In this document: positions 47,611-49,022 of the stretch, piece after piece
How the letters are laid out: each line of letters opens with the position of its first letter
Position numbering within the stretch: the stretch's first letter is position 1
From: Shigella phage sb3
DNA length: 64,000 nt
Sequence record: PQ666541
Direction: 5' to 3' (one strand)
Position numbers and translations under genes: made by a program
Notes under the pieces: model-generated
Seen by the model: only the letters and a program-made list of their open reading frames with translations
Told to the model about the DNA's origin: nothing
Database searches by the model: none

Positions 47611-49022
47611 TAGGTATAGATGATACCAGTTTCTAAAGCAGTTTTATGAATGATGTATCCATTGCGTGATTCTTGAACATCAACTTCTGGATAGTCTTTC
47701 ATCATCTTCTGAAGAGTGTAACGATGCAGGTAGTATTTACTATCTGGATCTTCAGTTTTCCAATCTTTACCTTCTTCGGTCATTTTTTGGATTTCATCCA
47801 TAACCCACCAACCGCACCAGATATAAGCTGAAGTACGATGTGGAAGAGGATGAACATAAGGCAATTCACCTTCTGGTTCCGGAGCAACTTTATCAGTTAC
47901 CTGAACTTGACCAGTCGCTTTAACTGTTTTACTATCATAGTCAGTTGCTGTAACGACAGCAGTAACTTCAATAGTTTGACTTCCAACAGATGAGGTATCG
48001 ACAGTATATACATTAGTTGACCCTTCTACTGGAGAAGAATCTTTCTTCCATGAATACGCAATTTGCGCTTCTTCTGGAGCATCAGTAACATTAGCCGTAA
48101 ATGTAGCTGAAGCATCTTGCTGAACGTTAATAGAAGGAGGAGTCAATGTAACCTGTGGATTCATTGTCTTCTTATTAACTGTTAATGATACTTCATTAGA
48201 AGTAACTTCCTTTTCATTGTAATTTTCTGCAGTTACTTGCGCTACACACTTAACTGTTTTAGCTCCAACTGTGGTAGGAGTATAGTTAAATGTAGTAGTA
48301 GTTTCTCCATCGACCAGAGAACCGTCAACATACCACTGATACGTAGCAGACGCTCCTGGTGGCTGTGAAGCCAAGGTAGCAGTAAATTGAACTGGGGTTC
48401 CAATAACTCCTGCTGGAGGATTAGCAGGAGTTACGGCTAACGTAGTTGTCTGTGTTTTCTTATTAACAGTCAGTGACACTTCATTAGAAGTAACTTCTTT
48501 TGTATCATAATCAGTCGCGGTTACTTGAGCTACACACTTGATTTTTTTAACTCCGCTTGTAGTAGGAGTGTAATTGAATGTAGCAGAAGTTGCTTCGCTT
48601 ACAGGAGAACCGTCAACGTGCCATTGATACGTGGCAGTTGCGCCTGATGGTTGAGAAGCTAAAGCAGCAGTAAATTCAACAGGAGTTCCAATTACTCCAG
48701 CTGGAGGACTAGCAGGAGTTACTGCTAAGGTAGTTGTCTGCGTCTTCTTATTAACTGTGATAGTTGTAGTAGCTTCTGCCGTTTCAGCATCAGTATCTGG
48801 AATTGTATTTGTTGCAACTACTTTAATAGTCTTTTGACCGGCAGGTCCTTTTAGTACATAACTAAAAGTTGCTTCAGTTCCATCTTGTGGAACATCGTCT
48901 ACAGTCCAAGCATAGGTAATAGTTCCACCTCCAGTTTCACCACTGGGTGTAGCAGTAAACTGCTGAGTCTGATCAATAACTCCAGTAGGTGTTTTAGGAG
49001 TTATATCAACTGTAAAAGCCAT
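47604..49022 (-). CDS. hoc: Hoc outer capsid protein with an extra tandem Ig-like domain
   Basis: 472 aa; N- and C-termini match T4 Hoc as recalled (376 aa); residues 90-185 and 186-281 are a 96-aa tandem repeat. Confidence 0.9.
   Translation of the reverse strand: MAFTVDITPKTPTGVIDQTQQFTATPSGETGGGTITYAWTVDDVPQDGTEATFSYVLKGPAGQKTIKVVATNTIPDTDAETAEATTTITVNKKTQTTTLAVTPASPPAGVIGTPVEFTAALASQPSGATATYQWHVDGSPVSEATSATFNYTPTTSGVKKIKCVAQVTATDYDTKEVTSNEVSLTVNKKTQTTTLAVTPANPPAGVIGTPVQFTATLASQPPGASATYQWYVDGSLVDGETTTTFNYTPTTVGAKTVKCVAQVTAENYNEKEVTSNEVSLTVNKKTMNPQVTLTPPSINVQQDASATFTANVTDAPEEAQIAYSWKKDSSPVEGSTNVYTVDTSSVGSQTIEVTAVVTATDYDSKTVKATGQVQVTDKVAPEPEGELPYVHPLPHRTSAYIWCGWWVMDEIQKMTEEGKDWKTEDPDSKYYLHRYTLQKMMKDYPEVDVQESRNGYIIHKTALETGIIYTYP

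What the first reader, a model, noticed from the sequence alone, without database searches (positions are those of the whole stretch)
48180..48755. Tandem duplication of an Ig-like domain in hoc
Hoc here is 472 aa, 96 aa longer than the T4 protein as I recall it. Codons 90-185 and 186-281 form a direct 96-aa repeat (VNKKTQTTTLAVTPA...EVTSNEVSLT), matched by a 288-nt tandem DNA repeat at 48468-48755 and 48180-48467. This adds one exposed Ig-like module to the capsid decoration protein, which could change surface adhesion or antigenicity.
Basis: partly seen in the sequence, partly recalled or inferred. Interest (0 to 1): 0.4.

Follow-up and report, generated by a model that had tools for sequence, protein, structure and literature searches.

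The report
Common four-Ig-domain Hoc capsid fibre
This T4-like phage carries the longer, widely shared form of the capsid decoration protein Hoc, in which the middle immunoglobulin-like domain occurs twice; the repeat is real and old, not an assembly error, and it is an ordinary variant already present in public phage records.

Summary
The hoc ORF (47604-49022, minus strand) encodes 472 aa. It contains two in-frame 288-nt / 96-aa tandem units at exactly the stated coordinates. The copies are diverged: 79% identical in both nt and aa, with no indels, dS 0.77 and dN/dS 0.16. That rules out an assembly duplication and a recent event.

Copy B is 97-99.7% identical to the terminal unit of other phages' hoc genes, so the modules are older than the phage lineages that carry them. 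The window is a Tequatrovirus, 97.3% identical to Shigella phage pSs-1 over 24 kb. About 37% of roughly 600 public T4-like records carry the same two-unit (472-aa) hoc. Others carry one unit (T4, 376 aa), three (EC101, 568 aa) or four (FJ1, 664 aa). A Mosigvirus record annotates a repeat_region inside its two-unit hoc. Published work already states that the number of Hoc Ig domains varies.

Both units are predicted as confident Ig-like beta-sandwiches. The likely mechanism is in-register unequal homologous recombination at conserved module borders, with heavy mosaicism. The likely effect is a fibre longer by one Ig module, with one more variable surface. That effect is inferred, not shown.

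Verdict: real, correctly interpreted, already known, low interest.

The parts
47604..49022 (-). [quoted passage not shown]
   Evidence: ORF listed. phmmer to T4 Hoc (5vf3_Z) gives E = 4e-211. Annotated hoc genes in sb4, pSs-1 and HP3 match over 100% of the length.
48756..49022 (-). Ig-like domain 1 (codons 1-89), the distal tip of the fibre. It carries E29 and G33, the residues reported as MUC2-binding in PhiPNJ-6 Hoc.
   Evidence: Alignment to T4 Hoc residues 1-89. AF2 beta domain. 99.6% nt identity to sb4. Residue mapping from PMC11150434.
48468..48755 (-). Domain-2 module, copy A (codons 90-185)
   Evidence: The best public match is only 92.8% (sb2). The module is itself a mosaic: the first ~216 nt are 98-100% identical to sb2 unit 1, and the last ~72 nt are 94% identical to sb4/pSs-1 unit 1.
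48180..48467 (-). Domain-2 module, copy B (codons 186-281)
   Evidence: It is 99.7% identical to sb4. In the unit identity matrix it is 99% identical to sb4 unit 2, 98% to FJ1 unit 4/4 and 97% to EC101 unit 3/3.
47892..48179 (-). Ig-like domain equivalent to T4 Hoc domain 3 (codons 282-377)
   Evidence: Aligns to T4 Hoc residues 186-281. Weak Pfam Ig_3 and I-set hits at 289-374. AF2 beta domain.
47607..47891 (-). C-terminal capsid-binding domain (codons 378-472)
   Evidence: Nearly identical to T4 Hoc 282-376. Almost invariant across 38 homologues. Lowest diversity of all segments, 1.8%.
48742..48758 (-). Linker/junction motif ACAGTTAATAAGAAGAC (..T-V-N-K-K-T..) at the D1|A border. Further copies lie at 48454-48470 (A|B) and 48166-48182 (B|D3). 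These are candidate in-register recombination sites.
   Evidence: the repeat finder family D4 has 3 copies spaced 288 nt apart. Junction sequences compared across 9 phages.
47570..47587 (-). Terminator-like hairpin AAGGGGCTTCGGCCCCTT followed by a T-rich tail, just downstream of the hoc stop
   Evidence: Conserved in T4 and FJ1.
49032..49712 (-). inh (inhibitor of prohead protease), immediately upstream of hoc. Included as synteny context.
   Evidence: ORF. Same gene order as T4: uvsW / inh / hoc / 24.3 / 24.2 / rnlB / 24.

Best explanation
The feature is the common long allele of the T4-family capsid decoration gene hoc. The domain-2 Ig-like (PKD-type) module of 96 codons is present as two diverged, in-frame tandem copies. 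This gives the architecture D1-D2a-D2b-D3-capsid anchor.

The duplication is ancient. Across Tequatrovirus and Mosigvirus the module number is polymorphic: 1, 2, 3 or 4 copies, giving proteins of 376, 472, 568 or 664 aa. The inferred cause is in-register unequal homologous recombination between conserved module borders (..VTSNEVSLT|VNKKTQTTTLAVTP..) during mixed infection or replication. Frequent short-patch exchange then makes each module a mosaic.

The functional inference is as follows. Hoc binds by its C-terminal domain at the centre of each gp23 hexamer, so the extra module lengthens the 155 surface fibres by one Ig domain. T4 Hoc is reported as about 180 A for four domains (PMC10385173), so I estimate roughly 4 nm from that, without measuring it. 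The extra module pushes domain 1 further out and adds one more variable Ig surface. It also adds a second copy of the S-L-T motif implicated in MUC2 binding in PhiPNJ-9. The result would be altered mucin or cell-surface adherence and altered antigenicity, without touching capsid attachment.
For: Shown:
- The repeat geometry and in-frame status are established.
- Purifying selection acts on both copies: dS 0.77, dN 0.12, omega 0.16.
- Both copies are predicted as the same beta-sandwich at high confidence. Foldseek's top hits are four-Ig strings: Dscam1 Ig1-4, Sidekick-2 Ig1-4 and ICAM-5 D1-D4.
- Pfam PKD scores above its curated cut-off.
- T4 Hoc aligns on both sides of a 96-aa excess.
- Units at the same position in different phages are 97-99% identical, whereas units within one gene are 72-85% identical.
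- Copy number varies. A 288-nt query hits 616 records at 891 places. In an evenly spaced sample of 60 records, 36 have 1 place, 22 have 2, 1 has 3 and 1 has 4. FJ1 hoc is 1995 nt and EC101 hoc is 1707 nt. Protein lengths are 376, 472 and 568 aa, always in steps of 96 aa.
- The closest genomes (at least 96% identical over 24 kb) include both two-unit forms (pSs-1, sb2, sb4, HP3) and one-unit forms (ECO07P3, S1P5QW).
- The gene is mosaic. Pairwise distances in D1, unit 1, unit 2, D3 and the C-terminus are nearly uncorrelated (rho 0.0-0.3). Copy A is a patchwork of sb2-like and sb4-like sequence.

From the literature:
- Hoc is a string of variable Ig domains on a conserved capsid anchor, with 1 to 10 Ig domains across homologues (PMC10385173).
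- Domain number is stated to vary among T4-like phages (PMC11150434, PMC13435897).
- MUC2 binding in PhiPNJ-9 maps to S183/L184/T185 of domain 2 (PMC11853027). Those residues are the 'SLT' that ends each module here, at residues 183-185 and 279-281.
Against: - No functional data exist for any two-unit Hoc.
- In PhiPNJ-6, isolated domain 2 did not bind MUC2, and binding mapped to domain 1 (PMC11150434). Added binding valency is therefore uncertain.
- Enrichment of variable positions in loops is only marginal (odds ratio 2.4, p = 0.05).
- The direction of change is not resolved. It could be an ancestral duplication with recurrent loss, or recurrent gain. T4's single unit is a complex mosaic rather than a clean one-breakpoint chimera.
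- Frequencies come from a biased public sample of isolates.
- The AF2 model is low-confidence for the C-terminal domain (pLDDT 40-65). The relative orientation of the domains is not reliable.
Confidence: 0.88

Rival explanations
1. The repeat is an assembly artefact, a spurious duplication of a single 288-nt unit.
For: Tandem repeats can be mis-assembled in general. Nothing in the tool results supports it.
Against: The two units differ at 60 of 288 positions, mostly at third codon positions, with no indels and an intact frame. Each unit has its own near-identical orthologue in independently sequenced genomes: copy B is 99.7% identical to sb4, and copy A is 98-100% identical to sb2 unit 1 over the first ~216 nt. 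Many independent records show the same two-unit hoc.
Confidence: 0.01
2. A recent tandem duplication arose in this phage lineage, so the extra domain is a new evolutionary event.
For: The duplication is exactly in phase, and the linker motif is identical at the D1|A and B|D3 borders.
Against: dS between the copies is 0.77, whereas the surrounding genome is about 3% diverged from pSs-1. Copy-specific orthologues exist in sb4, FJ1 and EC101, and a two-unit hoc is also present in a different genus, in the Mosigvirus moskry.
Confidence: 0.02
3. The two-unit allele did not arise by duplication within one genome. Instead, two diverged single-unit alleles from co-infecting phages underwent unequal (offset) recombination at the conserved linker and module ends, joining two 'allelic' domain-2 variants in tandem.
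For: Single-unit Hocs carry either the 'first-position' type (32) or the 'last-position' type (49) of module. The borders are conserved at the nucleotide level. Strong mosaicism shows frequent exchange between genomes. T-even phages are known to recombine very actively (established knowledge).
Against: The same data fit an ancestral duplication followed by repeated loss of either unit. Three-unit and four-unit forms with distinct 'middle' module types need several further steps under either model. No breakpoint evidence discriminates between them.
Confidence: 0.3
4. The extra module is a functionally neutral spacer. Copy number drifts through recombination, with no effect on adhesion, antigenicity or fitness.
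For: Hoc is non-essential in the laboratory (PMC10385173). Both one-unit and two-unit forms occur among very close relatives. In PhiPNJ-6, domain 2 alone did not bind MUC2 (PMC11150434).
Against: Both copies are under purifying selection (omega 0.16) and stay intact across many records. Forms with up to four units are maintained at a genome cost. Domain 2 is the MUC2-binding domain in PhiPNJ-9 (PMC11853027). Fokine et al. report that domains 2 and 3 attach to E. coli surfaces (PMC10385173).
Confidence: 0.25

Closest known systems
T4 Hoc (376 aa; PDB 5vf3, 8t1x; AF158101.6 hoc)
   Same: It is the same gene in the same locus, between inh and 24.3. D1, D3 and the capsid-binding domain are near-identical, and the domain-2 module and linker motifs are the same.
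   Different: T4 has one domain-2 module where this protein has two, so this protein is 96 aa longer. T4's unit is closest to the 'second or middle' module type of multi-unit alleles: 90% to moskry unit 2 and 89% to EC101 unit 2.
472-aa Hoc of Shigella phages sb4, sb2 and pSs-1, Escherichia phages HP3, ime09, wV7 and RB27, and Mosigvirus moskry
   Same: Identical architecture (D1-D2-D2-D3-anchor) and identical length. Overall nt identity is 91.5-94.5%.
   Different: Only allelic sequence differs. The window's copy A is at best 92.8% identical to any public record, and it combines sb2-like and sb4-like patches.
568-aa Hoc (EC101, UGKSEcP1) and 664-aa Hoc (vB_EcoM_FJ1)
   Same: Same module and same linkers. 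The terminal module is 97-98% identical to copy B here.
   Different: These carry three or four domain-2 modules instead of two.
Klebsiella phage PMBT63 Hoc-like protein (PMC13435897), Serratia phage Muldoon Hoc with 10 Ig domains (PMC10385173), and PhiPNJ-9 Hoc of 283 aa lacking domain 3 (PMC11853027)
   Same: These are published examples showing that Hoc keeps its capsid anchor while the number of Ig-like domains changes. PMBT63 also has one additional Ig-like domain relative to T4.
   Different: They are much more divergent proteins (PMBT63 is 46% identical to T4). Their extra or missing domains are not the same domain-2 tandem unit.

Membership tests
Hoc (highly immunogenic outer capsid protein) of T4-family phages | C-terminal capsid-binding domain homologous to T4 Hoc residues ~281-376 | tested here: met
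   Residues 272-472 align to T4 Hoc 176-376 with near identity (405 bits). The domain is almost invariant in 38 homologues.
Hoc (highly immunogenic outer capsid protein) of T4-family phages | N-terminal string of Ig-like domains joined by short linkers | tested here: met
   Pfam PKD scores 39.9 bits against a cut-off of 23.5, with further PKD-type and Ig hits, some below their cut-offs. The AF2 model has four all-beta domains at pLDDT of mostly 85-95. Foldseek's top hits are four-Ig-domain chains.
Hoc (highly immunogenic outer capsid protein) of T4-family phages | Conserved genomic position: uvsW / inh / hoc / 24.3 / 24.2 / rnlB / gene 24 | tested here: met
   The window ORFs match the T4 annotation. 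The window is 97.3% identical to pSs-1 over 24 kb.
Hoc (highly immunogenic outer capsid protein) of T4-family phages | One monomer bound at the centre of each gp23 hexamer on the mature capsid | not testable with these tools
   This needs virion proteomics or cryo-EM. It is inferred from the near-identical anchor domain and from PMC10385173.
Tandem domain duplication / copy-number polymorphism generated by unequal homologous recombination | Head-to-tail units of equal length, in frame, with homologous borders | tested here: met
   The period is 288 nt with 0 indels. The linker motif repeats every 288 nt. Junctions are conserved across 9 phages.
Tandem domain duplication / copy-number polymorphism generated by unequal homologous recombination | Alleles in the population differ by whole numbers of units | tested here: met
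   Gene lengths are 1131, 1419, 1707 and 1995 nt. Protein lengths are 376, 472 and 568 aa.
Tandem domain duplication / copy-number polymorphism generated by unequal homologous recombination | Identifiable recombination breakpoints, meaning chimeric units in the contracted or expanded alleles | tested here: inconclusive
   Single-unit alleles show a first-type 5' junction with either type of body. DNA painting, however, shows multi-patch mosaics rather than single clean breakpoints.

The most novel reading that the evidence does not exclude
The central part of hoc may behave as a recombining cassette array. Several distinct domain-2 module lineages (first, middle, terminal and a divergent ~50%-identity type) would be gained, lost and patch-converted in register among co-infecting T-even phages. 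Module number (1 to 4) and module combination would then be selected by the mucosal or immune environment. This would resemble copy-number-variable repeat adhesins of bacteria, and would make fibre length and valency a tunable trait.
Probability: 0.4. Interest if true: 0.35.

Novelty: already known. Interest (0 to 1): 0.12.

Why it matters
For this window it matters little. The gene is a normal allele of a well-studied, non-essential decoration protein, and the same architecture is present in many public phage genomes.

It has modest practical relevance. Hoc is the display platform for T4 vaccines and vectors, and it is the proposed mediator of phage adherence to mucus. Phage-therapy candidates such as HP3 and pSs-1 carry the long form. 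Knowing that about a third of T4-like isolates present a fibre longer by one Ig module, and that module number ranges from 1 to 4, is therefore useful when comparing mucosal adherence or anti-phage antibody responses between 'T4-like' phages.

Tried and rejected
1. Assembly artefact: rejected on 21% divergence between the copies and on copy-specific orthologues.
2. Recent lineage-specific duplication: rejected on dS of 0.77.
3. A simple single-crossover origin for one-unit alleles such as T4: the three diagnostic amino-acid columns suggested a first-type junction with a second-type body. Sliding-window DNA comparison showed complex mosaics, so no clean breakpoint could be claimed.
4. The idea that the window's VNKKT D1-to-D2 junction is unique: it was 1 of 121 protein-cluster representatives, but the same junction occurs in phage sb2. 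Rejected.
5. Variable sites concentrated in loops, as a signature of binding or antigenic selection: only marginal (p = 0.05 for population variability, p = 0.14 for A-versus-B differences). Not claimed.
6. Literature searches for an explicit description of the domain-2 tandem duplication in Tequatrovirus Hoc found only general statements that domain number varies, plus other examples. One planned paper (PMC2909354) is not held, and one search failed on term length.
7. The Foldseek PDB search did not rank Hoc structures first. Generic four-Ig chains came first and TM-scores were low, because inter-domain angles differ. It supports the fold class only.

Full report
OBSERVATION. The window has an ORF at 47604..49022 on the minus strand that encodes 472 aa. 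Tandem Repeats Finder reports a 288-nt period with 2.1 copies, 80% matches, no indels and score 767 at 48165-48755. The repeat finder gives a two-copy 288-nt family spaced 288 nt apart. It also finds a 17-nt linker motif present three times at 288-nt spacing, at 48166, 48454 and 48742.

The two units share 228/288 nt and 76/96 aa, which is 79.2% in both cases. The 60 mismatches fall 15/10/35 on codon positions 1/2/3. Of the differing codons, 28 are synonymous and 20 non-synonymous. Codon-shuffled controls average 31% identity, giving z = 17.8. Nei-Gojobori estimates are dS = 0.77, dN = 0.12 and omega = 0.16. The repeat is therefore real, far beyond chance, in frame, old, and under purifying selection in both copies.

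WHAT IT IS. phmmer against PDB sequences finds T4 Hoc (376 aa, 5vf3_Z) at E = 4e-211. The match comes as two stretches. Query 1-190 aligns to T4 1-190, and query 272-472 aligns to T4 176-376. The protein is therefore T4 Hoc plus exactly one extra 96-aa domain-2-type module.

Pfam gives PKD (E = 4e-10, 39.9 bits against a cut-off of 23.5, two stretches) and weaker PKD-type and Ig families. An AlphaFold2 model built on a 38-sequence alignment has four all-beta domains, with pLDDT mostly 85-95 over residues 1-377. The strand pattern is identical in the two copies. The C-terminal domain is modelled at lower confidence. Foldseek against the PDB returns four-Ig-domain chains first: Dscam1 Ig1-4, Sidekick-2 Ig1-4 and ICAM-5 D1-D4.

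The neighbourhood is syntenic with T4, in the order uvsW, inh, hoc, 24.3, 24.2, rnlB and gene 24. Window positions 36000-60000 are 97.3% identical to Shigella phage pSs-1, a Tequatrovirus. A terminator-like hairpin conserved in T4 follows the stop codon.

HOW COMMON IT IS. The full 1419-nt gene matches 678 phage records. Many of them, including sb4, Killian, pSs-1, HP3, ime09, G28, JK08 and wV7, cover it in one collinear piece of 1419 nt. Others match in two pieces spanning 1131 nt, which is the T4 form.

Using copy B alone as the query, 616 records contain 891 matching places. In an evenly spaced sample of 60 records, 36 have one place, 22 have two, one has three (EC101) and one has four (FJ1). 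The annotated hoc CDS of EC101 is 1707 nt (568 aa) and that of FJ1 is 1995 nt (664 aa). Their translations contain three and four in-phase modules.

The large protein collection shows the same steps. Among the 120 best hits, 81 are 376-378 aa, 30 are 468-472 aa and 9 are 567-570 aa. Phage moskry belongs to a different genus, Mosigvirus. It also has a 1419-nt hoc, and its GenBank record annotates a repeat_region inside the gene.

The closest genomes to the window include both two-unit forms (pSs-1, sb2, sb4, HP3) and one-unit forms. ECO07P3 has a 1131-nt hoc, and the S1P5QW Hoc is 376 aa. All of these are at least 96% identical over 24 kb.

EVOLUTIONARY ANATOMY. Units within one gene are only 72-85% identical at the DNA level. 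Units at corresponding positions in different phages are far closer: window copy B is 99% identical to sb4 unit 2, 98% to FJ1 unit 4/4 and 97% to EC101 unit 3/3. Clustering 170 units from 121 proteins gives two main clades. One is dominated by first-position units and the other by last-position units. Single-unit Hocs carry either type, 32 versus 49.

The D1-to-D2 junction is usually TITV(Q/K)NKTQ, and every later junction is SLTVNKKT. The window's first junction is of the internal type (VNKKT). That looked unique among the protein clusters, but phage sb2 shares it.

Copy A of the window is itself a patchwork. Its first ~216 nt are 98-100% identical to sb2 unit 1, and its last ~72 nt are 94% identical to sb4/pSs-1 unit 1. 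D1 and copy B are 99.6-99.7% identical to sb4. Overall, the best public match to copy A is only 92.8%.

Among 30 two-unit Hocs, pairwise distances in D1, unit 1, unit 2, D3 and the anchor are almost uncorrelated (Spearman 0.0-0.3). Diversity is 12-14% in D1 and the two units, 6% in D3 and 1.8% in the anchor.

This pattern points to an old duplication, or several, followed by frequent in-register homologous exchange. That exchange includes unequal events that add or remove whole modules. The direction of individual changes could not be resolved, because T4's and ECO07P3's single units are multi-patch mosaics.

MECHANISM AND FUNCTION (inferred). According to Fokine et al. 2023 (PMC10385173), Hoc is a ~180 A fibre of three Ig-like domains on a conserved C-terminal anchor, and it binds the centre of each gp23 hexamer. 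Their BLAST search found 650 homologues. [quoted passage not shown]

An additional domain-2 module should lengthen each of the 155 fibres by about one Ig domain and add one more variable surface, while leaving capsid attachment unchanged.

In PhiPNJ-9, MUC2 binding mapped to S183/L184/T185 of domain 2 (PMC11853027). These residues are the 'SLT' that ends each module, so they occur twice here, at 183-185 and 279-281. However, in PhiPNJ-6 domain 2 alone did not bind, and E29/G33 of domain 1 were critical (PMC11150434). Both of those residues are also present here. An effect on adherence or antigenicity is therefore plausible but unproven. Loop enrichment of variable sites is only marginal.

COMPARISON WITH WHAT IS KNOWN, AND NOVELTY. 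The protein meets every testable defining feature of Hoc. Its architecture is identical to that of many deposited Hoc proteins. Published work already states that the number of Hoc domains varies among T4-like phages (PMC10385173, PMC11150434, PMC13435897). It also describes an extra Ig-like domain in PMBT63 and a missing domain in PhiPNJ-9.

I found no paper that spells out the 1-to-4-copy polymorphism of the domain-2 module in Tequatrovirus and Mosigvirus, or its module lineages. That is a descriptive refinement, not a new kind of system.

VERDICT. It is not an artefact and not a recent event. It is already known, and interest is low (0.12).

Noticed in passing
window ~47023-47300 (- strand), frameshift near 47248: The homologue of T4 gene 24.2 is broken. 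An A-run is 1 nt shorter than in T4 and FJ1 (CGCG-AAAAGC versus CGCGAAAAAGC). This leaves only 27-aa and 33-aa ORF fragments where T4 has a 279-nt gene. It could be a homopolymer sequencing error or a real pseudogene.
   Followed up: partly
window 47586-47608: A hexamer microsatellite (TCATAA on the hoc coding strand, 3.8 copies) overlaps the hoc stop codon. It has two more units than T4 and FJ1, and it lies just before the conserved terminator hairpin at 47570-47587.
   Followed up: partly
window 47287-47502 (- strand) versus L004 (T4) 3466-3636: The gene 24.3 homologue is 71 aa here. T4's copy lacks 33 nt that are present in the window and in FJ1.
   Followed up: no
window 49713-49762: Only ~50 nt separate inh and uvsW. 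T4 (segE) and FJ1 ('homing endonuclease') have a 618-nt GIY-YIG homing endonuclease gene in this gap, so the window lacks that mobile insertion.
   Followed up: no
window 48468-48755 and L008 (sb2) 1279-2697: Copy A of the domain-2 module is a recombinant patchwork. It is sb2-like for ~216 nt and then sb4/pSs-1-like. It carries the unusual internal-type VNKKT junction after D1, which is shared with sb2 but absent from 120 other Hoc cluster representatives.
   Followed up: yes
proteins P0038 (472 aa) and P0044 (567 aa): Some long Hocs carry second or third modules of a much more divergent type (..TATTFTANVSNQP.., roughly 50% identical to the usual domain-2 unit). The array is therefore not built only from close duplicates.
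   Followed up: no
GenBank MG010123.1 (hit H64): A 32-kb record named 'Staphylococcus phage SAJK-IND' contains a T4-type two-unit hoc that is 83% identical to the window's unit. The record is probably mislabelled or contaminated.
   Followed up: no
L005 (Shigella phage sb4) 1-680 and 4199-4948: In the sb4 record, uvsW and rnlB (RNA ligase 2) are each annotated as two fragments. This suggests frameshifts or sequencing errors in that otherwise closest hoc relative.
   Followed up: no
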